Shown here: positions 23,121-57,779 of the stretch, one piece after another
Layout of the letters: each line of letters begins with the position of its first letter
Numbering within the stretch: position 1 is the stretch's first letter
Source of the DNA: Desulfobacteraceae bacterium
Lineage (GTDB): Bacteria > Desulfobacterota > Desulfobacteria > Desulfobacterales > UBA5852
Direction of reading: 5' to 3'
Assembly: GCA_014237395.1 (NCBI GenBank)
Contig: JABZFP010000029.1
Location: 50,537-114,536, forward strand
DNA length: 64,000 nt
Made by a program: the position numbers and the translations under genes
The notes under the pieces: generated by a model
Database searches by the model: none
The model's input: the letters and a program-made list of their open reading frames with translations, nothing else
What the model was told of the DNA's origin: nothing

Positions 23121-23226
23121 GACGGCTTCGAAAATTGTTCAAGATCAAGGCGTGCAAGTTGTGAGGAGCGAGGCGTGCTCAATGCACGCCGCAGTGACGA
23201 AGAGCGCCGCGCAACGCAGATATTGG
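23121..23226. repeat. structured palindromic repeat, copy R2 (left arm + core; interrupted by IS)
   Basis: Left arm GACGGCTTCGAAAATTG (23121-23137). Core about 80% identical to R4. Central hairpin GGCGTGC-tcaat-GCACGCC (23172-23190). Core ends at gatattgg (23226). Confidence 0.75.
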
Positions 23227-23239
23227 ACTTTTTCCTATG

Positions 23240-23437
23240 TGGTCCCATGTCAAGGAGAAAGCGTTAAGCAAACAAATGCCCTTTTCCTATCCGCATCTAA
23301 AAATGCATAGTACCGATTCGGTACACAAAAAAGCGAGCCGCCATTTACGAAGCGCCCTCAAGGGGCCAAAAGTCCGCCGCGGCCATCGCCCTGAGACTGT
23401 TTGCTTGTTTCTCCTTAACGACTATTTCCAATCAGAG
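23240..23437 (-). ncRNA. candidate bridge/seek guide RNA of the IS110-family element
   Basis: Long-range pairing of 23252-23260 with 23408-23416 and of 23268-23274 with 23398-23404. Internal hairpin GTACCG-att-CGGTAC (23310-23324). Encloses cttttcctat (23281-23290), which copies the IS end tttttcctat (23229-23238), and atttacgaagc (23343-23353), which is identical to the flank at 24589-24599. Strand is not established. Confidence 0.4.
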
Positions 23438-24517
23438 TTATGCTGCCATGCCACGCACTTGATAACTTCGTTGCTGCGTGCTCAATCGCCACAAAATGAT
23501 GGCCAAATCCCTCGCCAACGCCACGATTACTTTTTGCGGCACAGCGGTTTTAGCGACGATCCGTTGATACTTCCCCCCCGCCAATTCATCTTTGCGACGC
23601 CAACACCAGGCGGCCTCAACCAGCAAACTGCGCAAACGTTTCTGTCCCACGGGCCTCAATTTTGCCCGCCCCTTGCTCTCTCCGCTTTGCCGCACCATGG
23701 GGGCAAGACCCAGATAGCTGGCCACCTGATTGGCCGACTTAAAGCGCAAGGGGTCAAACAACTCCAGCAGGAAGGTCGCCGCGGTAATCGGACCAACCCC
23801 AGGCGCTGTTTGAAGACACTCAAAAGCTTTTTCATGGTCGCCCTGACGACATACCGCTCTGAGCTGTTTTTCGATATGTTGTCTTTCTTTGAGCAAAAAA
23901 GCCAACTCACGCACCAGGCTTCTAAGCGTATCTTTGGCCGAGGTTTGCAACGGCAGCTTCCAAAGCGCTTTGACCCCCTTGTCGCTCCAGTGCGCCAGAC
24001 CGGCCGGTTCCTTTACGCCAAGATACAGCAAGTGCGAACGGATCCTCTGTTTGACCGTACGAATCGAATCAACCAGGTCGTGACGACGACGCACCAGGCT
24101 GCGTTGCGCCTCTTGGGCCCTGCTGGGAACAGCGATCCCCTTGAGGATCCCGTTGGCAGAATAACGGGCCAGTCGTATGCAATCGAGTCGATCGGTCTTG
24201 GCACCTTGCGTCACCGGTCGGGGTACACGGTTGGGGGCTACCACCAACACCTTAATATCCCCCTCTTCAAGCAGACGGGCCAACTCAAATCCGGTCGGTC
24301 CGGCTTCGTAGGCTACCTGCACGATCTGAGGGCTAAATTTTTGCAACTGCTTAACCACCAACGCGGGGTCGGCCGGACTGACAAAAGTCTGCAAAAACCC
24401 GCTAATTCCATGGAAGGCAACATGATAGCTGTTTTTATGAACATCGATACCAACGTGAAAAAGATCACTTTGGGTTTCCAAAACTTCGCTCAACCGTGCT
24501 AAATTAACTTTTGCCAT
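23438..24517 (-). CDS. IS110-family transposase (DEDD/RuvC-like N-domain + Transposase_20 C-domain)
   Basis: 359 aa with HVGIDVHKNSY near the N-terminus and LQTAPGVGPITAATFLLEL...FKSANQVASYLGLAPMVRQSGES in the C-terminal half. Confidence 0.92.
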   Translation of the reverse strand: MAKVNLARLSEVLETQSDLFHVGIDVHKNSYHVAFHGISGFLQTFVSPADPALVVKQLQKFSPQIVQVAYEAGPTGFELARLLEEGDIKVLVVAPNRVPRPVTQGAKTDRLDCIRLARYSANGILKGIAVPSRAQEAQRSLVRRRHDLVDSIRTVKQRIRSHLLYLGVKEPAGLAHWSDKGVKALWKLPLQTSAKDTLRSLVRELAFLLKERQHIEKQLRAVCRQGDHEKAFECLQTAPGVGPITAATFLLELFDPLRFKSANQVASYLGLAPMVRQSGESKGRAKLRPVGQKRLRSLLVEAAWCWRRKDELAGGKYQRIVAKTAVPQKVIVALARDLAIILWRLSTQQRSYQVRGMAA

Positions 24518-24589
24518 GTTGGTTCCTCCTTTGCTGAATAAGTTCGTGGCAACGTCCTTATTCTAACATCGTTTGGGACCAACATGGTA

Positions 24590-24603
24590 TTTACGAAGCC
24601 GTC
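24590..24603. repeat. displaced right arm of repeat R2
   Basis: The 15-nt right arm aTTTACGAAGCCGTC (24589-24603; its first nt is counted with the IS/flank junction) pairs 14/15 with the reverse complement of the first 15 nt of the left arm (23121-23135). It closely resembles the R5 right arm TTTTACGAAACCGTC. Confidence 0.7.
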
Positions 24604-24618
24604 TATAAGGAGGAACAC

Positions 24619-25122
24619 ATGGCCCAAGTAACTTTAAAAGGCAATCCCGTGCAGACCATCGGTAACCTGCCCGCCGTCAGCGAGGCGGCACCCGGCTTTA
24701 CCCTGGTCGATAAGGATCTCAAGGAAATCTCGCTGCAGGACTATGCCGGTCAAAAAGTAGTGTTGAATATCTTTCCGAGTATCGATACCCCCACCTGCGC
24801 CATGTCGGTGCGCCGGTTCAATGCCGAGATCGGCAAACACGGCAATGCCGTGGCGGTTTGTGCGTCAATGGATCTGCCGTTTGCCCATGGCCGATTCTGC
24901 GGCGCCGAAGGCCTTGAAAAGGTGGTGTCGGCCTCCGCCTTTCGCCATCCTGAATTCGGGAATCACTATGGCGTCAGCATCACGGACGGACCCCTGAAAG
25001 GCCTTTTTGCACGCGCCGTGGTGGTCGTGGACGAAAACGGCAAGGTCGCCTATCACCAGCTCGTTCCTGAAATTGCCGACGAACCCGATTACGATGCCGC
25101 CCTGCAGGCCCTGGCGGGCTGA
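24619..25122 (+). CDS. tpx: thiol peroxidase (atypical 2-Cys peroxiredoxin)
   Basis: 167 aa with VTLKGNPV...APGFTLVDKDL...VLNIFPSIDTPTCA. RBS aaggagg at 24607. Confidence 0.93.
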   Translation: MAQVTLKGNPVQTIGNLPAVSEAAPGFTLVDKDLKEISLQDYAGQKVVLNIFPSIDTPTCAMSVRRFNAEIGKHGNAVAVCASMDLPFAHGRFCGAEGLEKVVSASAFRHPEFGNHYGVSITDGPLKGLFARAVVVVDENGKVAYHQLVPEIADEPDYDAALQALAG

Positions 25123-33632: not shown

Positions 33633-33773
33633 GAAGTTGATTGCACGCGTTTCATCGTGGTTCAGCGCAAGGCGCGCGGTTGGCTGCAAGCGGAGCATAC
33701 GCGGGTATGTGAGCATTGCGGCCGGCCGTGCAACACCGTGCTGTGCCGCGAGGTGACGCGTGCAATCAACTTC
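33633..33773. repeat. structured palindromic repeat, copy R3
   Basis: Perfect 18-bp arms GAAGTTGATTGCACGCGT (33633-33650) / ACGCGTGCAATCAACTTC (33756-33773). Core has gcaaggcgcgc, hairpin GCATAC-gcgg-GTATGT (33695-33710) and gtgcaacacc. The right arm ends on the first nt of the nqrF stop codon. Confidence 0.75.
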
Positions 33774-37042: not shown

Positions 37043-37166
37043 GACGACGTTGTGAACCGTTCAAGGTCAAGGCGTGCAAGCGCCAAGGAGTGAGGCGTAC
37101 ACCAGGTACGCCGCAGCGACGCGAAGCGCCGCACAACGCCGAGATTGGGCGGTTCACAACGTCGTC
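37043..37166. repeat. structured palindromic repeat, copy R4 (inside nqr operon)
   Basis: Perfect 17-bp arms GACGACGTTGTGAACCG (37043-37059) / CGGTTCACAACGTCGTC (37150-37166). Central hairpin GGCGTAC-accag-GTACGCC (37094-37112). Fills the nqrB-nqrC gap. Confidence 0.8.
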
Positions 37167-38349
37167 AGACATTGGACATCCTTCGCCGCATGCGCAGCTG
37201 CATCTCGATGTGATCCAGCAACGGGTTGAAAAGGTTCATGAAAAGAATCGCCAGACCCACCCCCTCGGGAAAAGCGGGGTTGAAGACCCGGATCAGAACG
37301 GTCAGCATGCCGCACATGAACCCGTATATCCATTTGACGTGCTTCATGTGAGTGGCCGAAACCGGATCGGTGGTCATATAAACAATGCCGAACGCCGATC
37401 CCCCCATGATCAGATGATAAAACGGATTGAGGGAAAGAAAAGGGGCGGAATCCGGCCCGGCGATGAGATTCAGGAGCGCACCGGTGCAGAGCACCCCTAA
37501 GACGCCCCCCAGGATAATGCGATAACTGGCAATGCCCAGCAGGATGAGGAACAGGCCGCCCAGGACACACAGGAGGGTCGACGTGCCGCCCACGCTGCCC
37601 GGATAAAGACCGCCAAAAAGCTTGAGGGCGCCGTAGCCCACCGAATGCAGGGTTTCTTCCACGGCCTGGCCGGCCGGGGTGGACGCGGAAACGGACAAGG
37701 GCGTTGCGGCCGTGAAGGTATCCACCACGGTGGTGCGCGCGCCGCTCAGGACGGTCCAGACCTGGTCACCGGAAAGACTGACCGGGTAGGCGAAATAAAG
37801 AAAGGCCCGGCCGGTCAGGGCCGGGTTCAAGAAGTTGCGCCCGGTGCCGCCAAAGACTTCCTTACCGATCACGATGCCGAAGGAAATCCCCAAGGCCACC
37901 TGCCACAGCGGGGTTCCGGGAGGCAGTGTCAATGGGAACAGCATGCAGGAAACGAAAAGCCCCTCGCTGATTTCGTGCTTGCGGACAACGGCAAACAGAA
38001 TTTCCCAGGCGAACCCCACCACGTAAGTTACGATCACCATGGGCAGCACGAGCCAGATACCGCTCCAGATCACCGGCAGCAAGTCGGTGGAGAGCCCCGA
38101 GGCAAGCCGCGACTGGAGGCCCGAATTATAGATGCCGAAACACAGGTGCGGAATCAGCGCCACGATCACCAGTGCCATGAAGCGCTTCACGTCCAGGCTG
38201 TCCCGTACGTGGGGAAGCCCCTCGGACCGCTCGACGGGCCCGAAAAAAACGGTTTCGATGGACTCGTAGAACGCATACAGCTTGTGATAGGGTCCCCCCT
38301 CCTCAAACCGGGGCCTCAGATGATGGAATAGGGTGCGGATCGCTTTCAT
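37165..38349 (-). CDS. nqrB: Na+-translocating NADH:quinone oxidoreductase subunit B
   Basis: 394-aa polytopic protein of the NqrB/RnfD family, with DTFTAATPLS at the flavinylation position. Its stop TGA (37167-37165) overlaps the right arm of repeat R4. Confidence 0.9.
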   Translation of the reverse strand: MKAIRTLFHHLRPRFEEGGPYHKLYAFYESIETVFFGPVERSEGLPHVRDSLDVKRFMALVIVALIPHLCFGIYNSGLQSRLASGLSTDLLPVIWSGIWLVLPMVIVTYVVGFAWEILFAVVRKHEISEGLFVSCMLFPLTLPPGTPLWQVALGISFGIVIGKEVFGGTGRNFLNPALTGRAFLYFAYPVSLSGDQVWTVLSGARTTVVDTFTAATPLSVSASTPAGQAVEETLHSVGYGALKLFGGLYPGSVGGTSTLLCVLGGLFLILLGIASYRIILGGVLGVLCTGALLNLIAGPDSAPFLSLNPFYHLIMGGSAFGIVYMTTDPVSATHMKHVKWIYGFMCGMLTVLIRVFNPAFPEGVGLAILFMNLFNPLLDHIEMQLRMRRRMSNV

Positions 38350-56740: not shown

Positions 56741-56802
56741 TGTGCATCCAGAAATGTCCAATTTTCCCGATATCGGCGCTACGCGTAAAAAGCCCTGTAG
56801 CA

Positions 56803-56962
56803 GACGGTTTCGTAAAAGGTTCGAGATACGGCTTGCGAATCCCGTGGAAAGAGGCGTACTTTTCGTACGCCGCAGTGACGAGGGATTCGTGTAACGCGGA
56901 TATTTATCCCTTTTAAGGGACGGTGTCCGCCTTTGGCGGATCGGGCGTTTTACGAAACCGTC
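56803..56962. repeat. structured palindromic repeat, copy R5 (extended)
   Basis: Perfect 15-bp arms GACGGTTTCGTAAAA (56803-56817) / TTTTACGAAACCGTC (56948-56962). Central hairpin GGCGTAC-ttttc-GTACGCC (56853-56871). Carries an extra ~45-nt module with two small hairpins before the right arm. Confidence 0.8.
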
Positions 56963-57779
56963 ATCCCTTGCGCCCGACATGGACGACGGCAATCCCGTTG
57001 GTCAGCCGCCAGTAGTGGACGTCTCTGAAACCGATGCGGGTCAGGATCGCGGACATCTCATCCGGCAGGTGGAAAAGACGGATGGTTTCCGGCAGGCAGG
57101 AATAGGACTCGGCCGATCCCGCGAGCAACTGGCCCAGGAAAGGCATCGCATAGAAAGAGTACATATCATACAGCCAGCGAAAGACCGGGTTGACGGGTCT
57201 TGAAAATTCCAGACACATGAACGTCCCGCCGGGTTTCAGCACCCGGTGCATTTCCCGAAAGCCCTGCTCCATGTGGGTGACGTTGCGAATGCCGAAGCCC
57301 ACCATGGCGGCATCGAAGCTATGTTCGGGATAGGGAATGCGTTCGGCATCGCCCTGGACGAATTGAATCCGCTCGCCGTAAGGCGTCTCCCTGACCTTGG
57401 GCTGGCCCGCCTGCAGCATGGCCCGATTGATGTCGTAGACCACACACCGTCCGTCGGCGCCGGTGCGCCGGGACGCCATGATGGACAGATCGGCCGTGCC
57501 GCCGCAGACGTCCAGCACCCGGTCGCCGGGTGACAGCCCCATCATGCGGATGGCCGCACGCTTCCAGGCGTACTGGATCCCGAAACTGAGAAGGGTGTTC
57601 ATGAGGTCGTATTTTGGCGCCACGCGGTTGAAGTGCCGGCGCACCCAGTCCACTTTTTCAGCGGTCGGCATCCGGCGATACCCGAAGTGGGCCACATCCG
57701 TACGATCGATATGCTGATCCAGTTGCGCGCTGCGGTCGGCCGCGTCAAACCACCGGGGGGTCTTCCATTCCATAACCAC
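56961..57779 (-). CDS. ubiE: demethylmenaquinone / ubiquinone C[17 protein letters not shown] (UbiE/MenG)
   Basis: FNRVAPKYDLMNTLLSFGIQYAWKR...VLDVCGGTADLS. The stop TGA (56963-56961) overlaps the R5 right arm. Confidence 0.9.
   Translation of the reverse strand: MVMEWKTPRWFDAADRSAQLDQHIDRTDVAHFGYRRMPTAEKVDWVRRHFNRVAPKYDLMNTLLSFGIQYAWKRAAIRMMGLSPGDRVLDVCGGTADLSIMASRRTGADGRCVVYDINRAMLQAGQPKVRETPYGERIQFVQGDAERIPYPEHSFDAAMVGFGIRNVTHMEQGFREMHRVLKPGGTFMCLEFSRPVNPVFRWLYDMYSFYAMPFLGQLLAGSAESYSCLPETIRLFHLPDEMSAILTRIGFRDVHYWRLTNGIAVVHVGRKG

What the first reader, a model, noticed from the sequence alone, without database searches (positions are those of the whole stretch)
23121..24603. IS110/IS1111-type element inserted precisely inside a copy of the structured repeat
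The R2 left arm and core (23121-23226) match R4 at about 80% identity up to ...gcgcaacgcagatattgg. The sequence needed to close the hairpin, aTTTACGAAGCCGTC, pairs 14/15 with the left arm but is found 1.36 kb away at 24589-24603, on the far side of an IS110-family transposase gene. The intervening DNA has subterminal inverted repeats TGGTCCCA (23240-23247) and TGGGACCA (24574-24581). The IS therefore interrupted the repeat at the junction between the core and the right arm. IS110/IS1111 elements are known to target REP-like palindromes (IS621 and several Pseudomonas elements), so the repeat family is probably this element's natural landing site. A 10-bp perfect stem pairs the extreme IS end (24578-24587) with the transposase start-codon region (24514-23).
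Basis: partly seen in the sequence, partly recalled or inferred. Interest (0 to 1): 0.7.

Follow-up and report, generated by a model that had tools for sequence, protein, structure and literature searches.

The report
RNA-guided insertion sequence splitting a hairpin repeat
A 1.36-kb IS1111-type mobile element sits inside one copy of a hairpin-forming repeat common in sulfate-reducing Desulfobacterales, and its own non-coding RNA region carries short guide sequences matching that repeat, so this is an ordinary new example of a known kind of RNA-guided transposon.

Summary
Window 23231-24589 holds an intact 1,359-bp element of the IS110 family with IS1111-type anatomy. It has a short left end, a DEDD transposase on the minus strand, a ~205-nt 3' non-coding region and subterminal inverted repeats. 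A related genome (~93% identical) has the same thioesterase-tpx locus with an uninterrupted repeat, which gives the empty site. Near-identical copies (99%) in at least six other flanks, and two relatives (68-71% aa), also sit in this repeat. They always lie in the A-run of one strand of its closing helix (...TTCGTAAA^AAGTCCGATATC). The 3' non-coding region holds a seekRNA/bridge-RNA-like internal loop. Its 5' strand complements the right side of the target, and its 3' strand equals the left side. These guides change together with the flanks across eight relatives, three of which use unrelated targets. The insertion point is inside the right arm, not at the core/arm junction, and the left boundary moves 4-7 nt. 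The 10-bp stem over the start codon is real and conserved. This is a new member of a known kind; the closest precedent is IS1111 in the QMITE2 repeat of Coxiella. The target repeat, about 125 nt and absent from Rfam, is the less ordinary part.

The parts
23121..23230 (+). Repeat copy R2, 5' portion. It holds the left arm (GACGGCTTCGAAAATTGTTCAAGATC), the conserved core and the inner part of the right arm (GATATTGGACTT).
   Evidence: The covariance model of the family scores it at 103 bits. It aligns with the uninterrupted orthologue L107. Identity to the copy at 37043 is 75.5%.
23231..24589 (-). IS110-family element of IS1111 type, 1,359 bp including one copy of the 3-nt AAA/TTT overlap. TTT occurs at 23231-23233 and again at 24590-24592. 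The IS-specific DNA is 23234-24589.
   Evidence: Homology with 99%-identical copies in other contexts ends here once the shared arm bases are discounted. The empty site is seen in L107. The A-run bookkeeping uses the variants in L005 and L155. GC is 52.7%, against 61-67% in the flanking genes.
23438..24517 (-). Transposase gene, 359 aa. The DEDD residues are D25, E71, D109 and D112. The GL-P----SG motif lies at residues 270-279.
   Evidence: Pfam PF01548 and PF02371. NCBIfam NF033542 at 242 bits. Motifs located. A 99%-identical cluster, P0001, is found in metagenomes.
23249..23419 (-). Candidate seekRNA/bridge RNA in the 3' non-coding region. A long outer stem (23397-23419 with 23249-23275) encloses a target-binding arm, two hairpins (23310-23324 and 23293-23306) and a single-stranded donor-matching segment.
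   Evidence: Folding. The structure was counted on 8 relatives: 85.7% of cells are paired against 33-46% when partners are slid, and 14 pairs carry compensatory changes. There is no Rfam match.
23366..23378 (-). 5' guide (right-target guide), GGCGGACUUUUGG. It is the reverse complement of AAAAGTCCGCC and pairs with the top strand of the target on the right of the crossover.
   Evidence: It matches the right flanks AAAAGTCCGATATC of the 99% copies. It changes to UGGAC, GAAC and GGC in relatives whose flanks read GTCCA, GTTCA and GTCC(G.U).
23341..23353 (-). 3' guide (left-target guide), GCUUCGUAAAUGG. It has the same sense as the left flank GGCTTCGTAAAT and pairs with the bottom strand.
   Evidence: It gives an 11-nt run against its own flank. 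Relatives L136, L137/138 and P0041 use unrelated targets and have runs of 9, 10 and 8 nt against their own flanks, but 4-5 nt against other flanks.
23280..23292 (-). Donor-matching segment GGAUAGGAAAAGG, the same sense as the right end of the IS, CATAGGAAA.
   Evidence: AAUAGGAAA is conserved in all 8 relatives and tracks the right-end variant AUAAGAAA in L137/138.
23237..23247 (.). Right-end subterminal inverted repeat, TGGGACCACAT in IS orientation. The perfect TTGACA at 23248-23253 (minus strand) lies just inside it.
   Evidence: TTGACA is conserved in the relatives and lies 17-18 nt from TACCAT of the left end in the inferred circle junction.
24574..24589 (.). Left end of the IS, TACCATGTTGGTCCCA in IS orientation, including the left subterminal inverted repeat (24574-24585).
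   Evidence: It is identical in all 99% copies and in the 68-72% relatives.
24514..24587 (-). 5'-UTR hairpin. The left-end bases 24578-24587 pair with 24514-24523 (the AUG and bases next to the Shine-Dalgarno sequence), enclosing a small inner hairpin.
   Evidence: MFE is -31.9 kcal/mol with a z-score of -6.0. It falls to -13 kcal/mol if the first 17 nt are left out. The same stem forms with compensatory changes in L013, L137 (GGCCUCC/GGAGGCC) and L155.
24590..24603 (+). Displaced outer part of the right arm of R2, TTTACGAAGCCGTC. It ends 15 nt before the tpx start codon at 24619.
   Evidence: It is complementary to 23121-23135. It is contiguous with the core in L107. The reconstructed 124-nt R2 folds as one hairpin at -56.7 kcal/mol.
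37043..37166 (+).
   Evidence: Covariance model score of 117 bits; sequence.
56803..56962 (+). Intact repeat copy with an extra small hairpin inserted between the core and the right arm.
   Evidence: Covariance model score of 80 bits; sequence and fold.

Best explanation
An intact, recently acquired insertion sequence of the IS110 family, with IS1111-type anatomy, has integrated into the 3' strand of the closing helix of one copy of a ~125-nt hairpin repeat. The repeat lies between a thioesterase gene and tpx.

The IS most likely moves as a circle whose abutted ends read CATAGG-AAA-TACCATG. It recombines conservatively, without target duplication, with the target ...GGNTTCGT-AAA-(A)AGTCCGATATC at a shared AA(A) core.

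The site is chosen by an RNA made from the 3' non-coding region (a seekRNA or bridge RNA). An internal loop presents GGCGGACUUUUGG, which pairs with the top strand to the right of the core. It also presents GCUUCGUAAAUGG, which pairs with the bottom strand to the left of the core. A further single-stranded segment, AUAGGAAA, matches the right end of the IS.

The repeat arms are a palindrome. The same guides therefore also fit the mirror site in the left arm, where the IS sits in the opposite orientation.

Two regulatory features are inferred. A TTGACA in the right end would form a promoter with TACCAT of the left end only in the circle. A conserved stem between the extreme left end and the start codon would block translation of read-through transcripts.

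Shown here: the insertion, its boundaries to within about 3 nt, the empty site, the target specificity across independent insertions, and guide-flank complementarity with covariation. Inferred: that the RNA is made and used, the circle junction, the promoter and the translational control.
For: - **Family:** Pfam and NCBIfam assign the ORF to the IS110 family of RNA-guided transposases.
- **Empty site:** it is present in a ~93%-identical relative.
- **Independent insertions of the same IS:** nine metagenome loci (L003-L007 and L009-L012) hold the same IS at 97.9-99.7% nucleotide identity. They give at least 6 distinct left flanks, all ending ...TCGTAAAT|ACCATG. They give at least 7 distinct right flanks, all starting CATAGGAAAA(A/T)GT(C/T)CGA.
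- **Relatives in the same repeat:** relatives P0029 (68% aa identity, at least 3 loci) and L135 (71%) lie in copies of the repeat, and P0024 (72%) lies at the same arm sequence with too little right flank to score.
- **Flanks are repeat copies:** the covariance model of the repeat scores the flanks at 75-103 bits.
- **Guide segments:** they lie in a conserved internal loop. The order, with the top-strand match 5' of the bottom-strand match and the two matches overlapping in the target, is that reported for IS1111-type seekRNAs (PMC11187229).
- **Guide-flank covariation:** the guides covary with the flanks across 8 relatives. Three of these use unrelated, non-repeat targets.
- **RNA structure:** it is supported by compensatory changes.
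- **Anatomy:** a downstream non-coding region, a short left end and subterminal inverted repeats of 7-17 bp define the IS1111 group (PMC11208160; PMC11187229).
- **5'-UTR stem:** z-score of -6.0, and conserved with covariation.
- **Precedents:** promoter formation at circle junctions is documented for ISEc11, ISEc21 and ISPpu10.
- **Recent arrival:** the IS has lower GC than its surroundings.
Against: - No expression data, circle junction or transposition assay is available.
- The window's own right flank reads GTCCA, where the guide would pair best with GTCCG.
- The orthologous empty site reads GGAC-AA-TTTACG, whereas the filled site implies GGAC-TT-TTTACG. Either the ancestral site differed at two bases, or this copy did not arrive by a simple guided insertion.
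- A guide for the left end of the IS (the right donor side) could not be identified with confidence.
- Right-guide matches are weaker (7-9 nt) than left-guide matches, and are poor for L136.
- Metagenome contigs across a repeated IS can be chimeric, so the count of independent insertions is approximate.
- Placement in the IS1111 clade by transposase sequence is not decisive. Identity is 28% to IS5075, 31% to ISSso6 and 30% to ISEc45, and there is no hit to ISEc21.
Confidence: 0.88

Rival explanations
1. The IS family does target the repeat, but this particular copy reached the thioesterase-tpx locus by homologous recombination or gene conversion between repeat copies. An IS-bearing repeat would have replaced an empty one, rather than the IS transposing directly.
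For: The bases next to the IS (GGAC-TT) differ from the orthologous empty site (GGAC-AA), while the left arm that should pair with them is identical in both genomes. The flank GTCCA mismatches the IS's own guide at one base. The repeat copies offer ~100 nt of homology on one side.
Against: Only 14 nt of repeat lie on the tpx side of the IS, which is too short for efficient homologous exchange. The window's core is its own variant and is shared with L107, not with the contexts of the other IS copies. One or two substitutions in a region that has diverged by 7% are not surprising.
Confidence: 0.07
2. The transposase protein recognises the hairpin shape or sequence of the repeat directly, as RAYT or IS200/IS605-type enzymes recognise REP hairpins. 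On this view the complementarity in the non-coding region is incidental.
For: The target lies in a long palindrome. No RNA has been observed. The right-guide matches are imperfect.
Against: Relatives with homologous non-coding regions insert into non-palindromic, unrelated sequences that match their own left guide over 8-10 nt (L136, L137/138, L155). Guide bases change with the flank bases: CGGAC/GTCCG, UGGAC/GTCCA and GAAC/GTTC. RNA guidance has been shown experimentally for IS1111-type and IS110-type elements (PMC11187229, PMC11208160).
Confidence: 0.03
3. The repeat is a non-autonomous element derived from, or mobilised by, this IS family, in the way ssr9 modules are moved by ISPpu9. On this view the association reflects shared mobility and not target choice.
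For: ISPpu9 gives a precedent for modular circles (PMC12288879). L005 shows two IS copies bracketing one repeat core. Copies within one genome are very uniform, for example in Desulfosarcina cetonica.
Against: The repeat has no IS-end or subterminal inverted-repeat sequence, and shares nothing with the IS beyond the guide/target complementarity. None of the 112 genome stretches of 8 kb that hold a repeat encodes a relative of the transposase. Copies in the window have unrelated arm sequences that the IS could not recognise.
Confidence: 0.02

Closest known systems
IS1111 in the QMITE2 / GTAG-REP palindrome of Coxiella burnetii (PMC5896051)
   Same: An IS of this group inserts into a 150-190-bp repeat that has long inverted ends. 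It leaves 10-20 nt of the repeat on one side and the rest on the other. Empty and filled sites differ between related genomes.
   Different: The host phylum, the repeat sequence and the IS sequence all differ. Here the guide RNA segments that explain the specificity can be read directly, and both arms of the repeat are used.
ISPa11, ISPpu9 and ISPpu10 in Pseudomonas REP sequences (PMC11187229, PMC12288879; Tobes & Pareja 2006, cited in PMC11208160)
   Same: These are IS110-family elements targeted to extragenic palindromes (ISPa11 is stated to be IS1111-type). The ISPa11 seekRNA lies downstream of tnp, with the top-strand match 5' of the bottom-strand match.
   Different: Pseudomonas REPs are ~35-nt units, whereas the target here is the closing helix of a ~125-nt element with a conserved core. 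The transposases are distant.
IS621 and its bridge RNA (PMC11208160, PMC11208158; PDB 8wt6)
   Same: It has a DEDD recombinase plus an RNA with loops that read both strands of the target and the donor around a short shared core. It inserts in E. coli REP sequences. A promoter forms across the circle junction.
   Different: IS621 belongs to the IS110 group. Its RNA is encoded upstream of the gene and its subterminal repeats are very short. Protein similarity is limited to the C-terminal domain (E = 9e-8).
ISKpn4, ISPst6 and ISPa25, and the pair ISEc21/ISMch6: natural retargeting of seekRNAs (PMC11187229)
   Same: Related IS elements keep the RNA fold while the guide bases follow the target.
   Different: Those cases involve attC sites or IS3 genes. 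Here the guide variants follow sequence variants of one repeat family. One variant (GAAC) fits only the left arm, because the arms differ at a G.T position.

Membership tests
IS110 family (DEDD, RNA-guided transposases) | The transposase has an N-terminal DEDD RuvC-like domain (PF01548) and a C-terminal PF02371 domain. | tested here: met
   PF01548 at E = 4e-16 and PF02371 at E = 7e-25. NCBIfam NF033542 at 242 bits against a cut-off of 140.
IS110 family (DEDD, RNA-guided transposases) | Catalytic D-E-D-D residues and the G--P----S/T-G motif. | tested here: met
   D25 (GIDVH), E71 (YEAGPTG), D109 and D112 (KTDRLD), and GLAPMVRQSG at 270-279. These were read from the sequence and compared with IS5075, ISSso6, ISEc45 and ISEc21.
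IS110 family (DEDD, RNA-guided transposases) | Site-specific insertion without a target-site duplication of the usual kind. | tested here: met
   The filled and empty sites differ only by the IS plus a shared 3-nt A-run.
IS1111 group | The long non-coding region lies downstream of tnp, and the left end is short. | tested here: met
   The left end is 72 nt (24518-24589). The right end is ~205 nt (23231-23437).
IS1111 group | Subterminal inverted repeats of 7-17 bp. | tested here: met
   There are 8 perfect bp, or 11-12 bp with one indel, starting 4 nt (left end) and 6 nt (right end) inside the IS-specific ends at 24589 and 23234. They covary in relatives.
IS1111 group | The seekRNA has its top-strand match 5' of its bottom-strand match, and the two matches overlap in the target. 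| tested here: met
   GGCGGACUUUUGG lies 5' of GCUUCGUAAAUGG, and they overlap on the A-run. The criterion comes from PMC11187229. This rests on sequence only; the RNA itself has not been observed.
IS1111 group | The transposase falls in the IS1111 clade. | tested here: inconclusive
   BLASTP gives IS5075 at 28% over the full length (86-91 bits), ISSso6 at 31% (137 bits), ISEc45 at 30% (117 bits), and no hit to ISEc21. At 359 aa the protein is slightly above the 330-350 aa typical of the group. No tree with ISfinder references could be made.
IS1111 group | A circular intermediate with abutted ends, and an RNA that co-purifies with the transposase. | not testable with these tools
   The junction CATAGG-AAA-TACCATG and the promoter TTGACA-17 nt-TACCAT are inferred only.
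Rfam RNA families (for the IS non-coding region and for the repeat) | A match to a curated covariance model. | tested here: not met
   There are no matches at gathering scores in the whole window. Only chance-level matches appear at E up to 5.
REP/ERIC-like extragenic palindromic repeats (the target) | A multicopy, intergenic, imperfect palindrome whose pairing is conserved. | tested here: met
Of 38 consensus pairs, 26 have compensatory changes. Only 2 of 70 copies lie inside an ORF.
MITE (the target) | Terminal inverted repeats of constant sequence plus flanking target-site duplications. | tested here: inconclusive
   The arms vary between copies with compensation, and in the window some are unrelated in sequence. 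No flanking direct repeats were noticed in the printed flanks. This was not tested systematically.

The most novel reading that the evidence does not exclude
The target may be the more novel item. It may be an undescribed ~125-nt structured element family found across Desulfobacterales. The supporting observations are these:

- The core is conserved.
- The closing-helix sequence drifts freely but stays paired.
- Mismatches are overwhelmingly G.T on one strand (102 against 20 A.C). This points to function as an RNA or as single-stranded DNA of that strand.
- The outer end often supplies the TGA stop codon of a convergent gene.

A clade of IS1111-type elements appears to co-evolve with this family. 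Guide variants (GUCCG-, GUCCA-, GCC- and GUUC-reading) track arm variants specific to a host or to one arm of the repeat. The G.T asymmetry of the helix lets a guide distinguish the left arm from the right arm.
Probability: 0.4. Interest if true: 0.55.

Novelty: new member of a known kind. Interest (0 to 1): 0.42.

Why it matters
The case gives a clean natural example of RNA-guided target choice by an IS1111-type element, read entirely from sequence. It has an empty site, many independent insertions, and guide bases that change with the target. It comes from a phylum, sulfate-reducing Desulfobacterales, where these elements have not, to my knowledge, been studied. The set of related guides and targets could serve as natural design rules for reprogramming seekRNA/bridge-RNA recombinases. 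For genome annotation, it shows that the IS cuts the hairpin 15 nt upstream of tpx and separates that gene from whatever lies upstream. It also flags an abundant repeat family, absent from Rfam, that deserves its own study.

Tried and rejected
- **Other copies in the same genome.** The exact transposase and the exact Tpx protein each occur on only four contigs, all at this locus and all carrying the IS. No within-genome comparison and no empty site at strain level could be obtained.
- **Rfam.** It has no model for the non-coding region of the IS or for the repeat.
- **Metagenome scan with the transposase.** It gave only 16 loci, one of them close. Look-ups by cluster representatives were more productive.
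- **Geobacter repeats.** Supplementary files of the Geobacter metallireducens genome paper describe multicopy hairpin RNAs and IS elements at fixed distances from repeats. They held no searchable sequence, so a link to those repeats is untested.
- **A 'GT' core.** This would make AAAT part of the IS and the target TTCGT|CCGA. I rejected it because native repeats and the empty site contain the A-run between the two GTs.
- **A-run models.** I considered models with 4 or 5 A in the donor. I settled on 3 A from the AAAAT variant flank in L005 and the 3-A target of L155.
- **A guide for the left end.** I looked for one complementary to TACCATGTTGG. Only ambiguous palindromic matches (GGUACNAUGCAU) were found, so none is claimed.
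- **Outward promoter toward tpx.** The sigma-70-type scan found none in the left end.
- **The arms as true IS ends.** I rejected this because of the empty site and about 80 IS-free copies.
Full report
**What is in the window**

A minus-strand ORF (24517..23438, 359 aa) carries the two Pfam domains of IS110-family transposases. It also passes the NCBIfam model 'IS110 family RNA-guided transposase' at 242 bits against a cut-off of 140. Its DEDD residues (D25, E71, D109, D112) and the GL-P----SG motif (270-279) are in place.

To its left lie a left arm and a core (23121-23228) that belong to a repeat family with intact copies at 37043-37166 and 56803-56962. To its right, 1.36 kb away, lies the sequence that closes the hairpin (24590-24603). 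It is complementary to the left arm in 14 of 15 positions. Joining the two pieces gives a 124-nt hairpin of -56.7 kcal/mol. Identity between R2 and the copy at 37043 is 75.5%, not 80%.

**The empty site**

A scan of one genome per species with a pattern from the repeat core returned, among others, an 8-kb stretch of a Desulfobacterales MAG (L107, CAXXEA010000003.1). It is 92.7% and 93.5% identical to the window on the two sides of the IS. In it, 48 nt stand where the window has 1,386 nt. The repeat there is uninterrupted and reads ...GATATTGGAC-A-ATTTACGAAGCCGTC, followed by the tpx ribosome-binding site. This rules out the idea that the arms are ends of the IS.

**Other copies of the IS**

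The identical transposase, and the identical Tpx, occur only at this locus in the assemblies on record. A within-genome test was therefore not possible.

A cluster 99% identical in protein (P0001) is present on many metagenome contigs. Ten were read, and nine of them (L003-L007 and L009-L012) align with the window's IS at 97.9-99.7% nucleotide identity. They give at least six different left flanks and seven different right flanks.

- Every left flank ends ...(T/A)TCGTAAAT before ACCATGTTGGTCCCA.
- Every right flank begins, after CATAGGAAAA(A/T), with GTCCGAT... (the reverse complement of the inner right arm) or GTTCGA(G)AT... (the inner left arm).
- A covariance model built from 82 IS-free copies of the repeat scores these flanks at 75-103 bits. 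It shows the repeat antiparallel to the IS when the right arm is hit and parallel when the left arm is hit.
- One contig (L005) has two copies of the IS in inverted orientation, one in each arm of a single repeat.

Relatives also sit in this repeat family. P0029 (68% aa identity, at least three loci) and L135 (71%) lie in copies of the repeat at the same position. P0024 (72%) lies at the same arm sequence, but its contig ends too soon after the IS for the flank to be scored with the model. P0015 (71%) lies in an arm-like CGTAAAAAGTCG motif.

**Boundaries**

Native arms read, in IS orientation...TTCGT-AAAAA-G(T/C)CCGATATC. Filled sites read ...TTCGT-AAA-TACCATG... on the left and ...CATAGG-AAAAA-GTCC... 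on the right.

Two variants fix the bookkeeping. A right flank with AAAAT-GTTCG (L005) keeps four A before the T, as native AAAATGT arms do. A relative whose target has three A (L155: GGGGG-AAA-CTTTCG) has three A at both junctions. Both fit a donor junction CATAGG-AAA-TACCATG and an exchange within a shared AA(A).

In window coordinates the IS-specific DNA is 23234-24589, and TTT is present at both junctions (23231-23233 and 24590-24592). That gives 1,359 bp. The break is therefore inside the 3' strand of the ~26-bp closing helix, and not at the boundary between core and arm.

**Why this site: guides in the 3' non-coding region**

The element has a 72-nt left end and a ~205-nt right end. This is the IS1111-type arrangement (PMC11187229; PMC11208160).

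In the right end, a 5-bp stem (GCCGC/GCGGC) closes an internal loop capped by a small hairpin.

- The 5' strand of the loop, GGCGGACUUUUGG (23366-23378), is the reverse complement of AAAAGTCCGCC. That is the core plus the right side of the target.
- The 3' strand, GCUUCGUAAAUGG (23341-23353), equals the left side of the target plus the core.
- The two matches overlap on the A-run, with the top-strand match 5' of the bottom-strand match. This is what was reported for IS1111-type seekRNAs.
- A further single-stranded stretch, GGAUAGGAAAAGG (23280-23292), equals the right end of the IS. It lies in a multiloop, the place where Durrant et al. describe donor-binding bases in many IS1111 orthologues.

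Across eight relatives the fold is kept. Of all cells, 85.7% are paired, against 33-46% when partners are slid by 1-3 columns. Fourteen pairs have changes on both sides.

The guide bases follow the flanks.

| IS | Right guide / right flank | Left guide / left flank |
|---|---|---|
| Window IS and its 99% copies | CGGAC / GTCCG | UUCGUAAAU / TTCGTAAAT |
| P0029 | UGGAC / GTCCA | CUGUAAAU / CCGTAAAT (a U.G pair) |
| L135 | GAAC / GTTCA | not compared |
| P0024 | GGC / GTCC (G.T) or the common GCC arms | not compared |

Three more distant relatives are inserted in sequences that are not this repeat, yet their left guides match their own flanks:

- L136: CUUCAAAU against CCTCAAAT.
- L137/138: GUAAUAAAAU against GTAATAAAAT.
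- L155: GGGGAAAU against GGGGGAAAT.

Their runs are 8-10 nt against their own flanks and 4-5 nt against other flanks. This covariation is the main argument that an RNA sets the specificity, and not protein recognition of a hairpin.

The two arms differ at a G.T position (left GTTCGA, right TCGGAC). A GAAC guide can therefore read only the left arm, while a GGAC guide reads the right arm and, through G.T pairing, the left arm as well.

**Ends and regulation (inferred)**

Just inside the right repeat is a perfect TTGACA (23248-23253). It is conserved in all relatives apart from one substitution (TTGACT in L155). In the inferred circle it lies 17-18 nt from TACCAT of the left end. Promoters formed across circle junctions are documented for ISEc11, ISEc21, ISPpu10 and IS621, but not for ISPpu9.

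It recurs with compensatory changes in L013, L137 and L155. It is lost if the first 17 nt are absent, as they would be in a transcript started from the junction promoter. A plausible reading is that read-through transcripts from the host are not translated, while circle-derived transcripts are. This has not been tested.

**What does not fit neatly**

- The window's right flank is GTCCA, whereas the IS's own guide pairs best with GTCCG.
- The orthologous empty site has GGAC-AA-TTTACG, which pairs with a left arm that is identical in both genomes. The filled site implies GGAC-TT-TTTACG. Two substitutions since the split would explain this, given 7% divergence. Arrival by recombination between repeat copies is a minor alternative.
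- No guide for the left end of the IS was identified.
- Clade membership by protein is not settled. Identity is 28% to IS5075 (IS1111 type) over the full length, 31% to ISSso6 and 30% to ISEc45, with no BLASTP hit to ISEc21 (IS110 type).

**The repeat itself**

About 80 are true family members, from Desulfosarcina (many in D. cetonica JCM 12296; also D. alkanivorans), Desulfococcus, Desulfatitalea and unnamed Desulfobacterales MAGs.

The consensus is GACGGATTCGTAAAAAGCCCGAGATCAAGGCTTGCGAATCC.GAGGAATGAGGCGTAC-loop-GTACGCCGCAGTGACGA.GGATGAAGCGTAACGC.GATATCGGGCTTTTTACGAATCCGTC.

- RNAalifold predicts 38 pairs, of which 26 have compensatory changes.
- In the closing helix, G.T pairs outnumber A.C pairs 102 to 20. 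Copies are not independent, so the test value overstates significance.
- The window holds five copies, all on the + strand. Two have arms of unrelated sequence that still pair.
- In 20 of 56 copies, an ORF of at least 100 codons on the opposite strand ends with the TGA made by the last bases of the right arm. This includes the window copies at 37166 and 56962.
- In 47 of 80 copies, an extra arm-like CGTAAAAAG motif lies upstream.
- Only about 9% of the sampled right arms match the window IS's exact target. The commonest variant (GCCC) fits the guide of P0024 instead.
- Rfam has nothing like this element.

What the element does is open. Candidates are an RNA, a single-stranded DNA hairpin, or an ERIC/REP-like 3'-end element.

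**Comparison with what is known**

Insertion of IS110/IS1111 elements into extragenic palindromes is well established. Examples are IS621 in E. coli REPs and ISPa11, ISPpu9 and ISPpu10 in Pseudomonas REPs. The founder, IS1111, has 20 of its 21 copies in Coxiella burnetii RSA 493 lying in the QMITE2 repeat, with 10-20 nt of the repeat left on the far side. Natural retargeting of seekRNAs between relatives is also described. The present case is therefore a new member of a known kind. It is well documented by comparative evidence, and it has an apparently undescribed target family.

**Verdict**

The mechanism is assigned with high confidence to RNA-guided, IS1111-type site-specific recombination. 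Interest is moderate (0.42). A specialist would not be surprised by the IS, but the set of guide/target variants and the repeat family are useful leads.

Noticed in passing
window 37043-37166, 56803-56962, 33633-33773 and about 290-425; loci L023-L134: The target repeat is a ~125-nt element found across Desulfobacterales. It has a conserved core and a closing helix whose sequence varies but stays paired: 26 of 38 pairs have compensatory changes. G.T outnumbers A.C by 102 to 20 on one strand. It has no Rfam match. All five window copies are on the + strand.
   Followed up: partly
window 37165-37167 and 56961-56963; 20 of 56 copies in L023-L134: The TGA stop codon of a gene on the opposite strand is formed by the last bases of the repeat's right arm (...CCGTCA). 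The strand that favours G.T pairs is therefore antisense to the gene that ends at the element.
   Followed up: partly
window 56782-56795; 47 of 80 copies in L023-L134: An extra arm-like motif (C)TCGTAAAAAG(T/C)C lies about 8 nt upstream of the left arm. It could pair with the right arm as an alternative partner. One IS relative (P0015, L151) is inserted in a motif of this kind.
   Followed up: partly
window 56905-56945; L107 4440-4475; L007 right flank: Some repeat copies carry small nested GC-rich hairpins, such as GTCCGCCTTTGGCGGATCGGGCG or GGGGGCCGAAGGCC. They lie inside the core or between the core and the right arm, near the point where the IS inserts.
   Followed up: no
L005 (ena:ERZ27256776 k141_1592574): Two copies of the IS in inverted orientation bracket a single repeat core, one in each arm. 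This may be a real double insertion or an assembly artefact.
   Followed up: partly
L013-L022, L135 and L151, downstream of the seekRNA region: The relatives P0029, L135 and P0015 carry an extra segment of about 300 nt between the seekRNA and the right-end terminus. The window IS lacks it. Its content was not examined.
   Followed up: no
window 24514-24531 compared with 23234-23247: The region around the transposase start codon (GGAACCAACATGG) resembles the right-end inverted repeat (GGGACCACATAGG). The left end and the start region thus form a second, internal inverted-repeat pair, which may be a transposase binding site.
   Followed up: no
L154 (jgi 3300010353 Ga0116236_10034099): In the relative P0033, the region just downstream of tnp is occupied by an IS1595-family transposase gene on the opposite strand. 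The seekRNA region appears to be displaced or destroyed.
   Followed up: no
window 24590-24621: The IS leaves only 26 nt between its left end and the tpx start codon, and the scan found no outward sigma-70-like promoter in the left end. Expression of tpx may be affected in this strain compared with the empty-site relative.
   Followed up: partly
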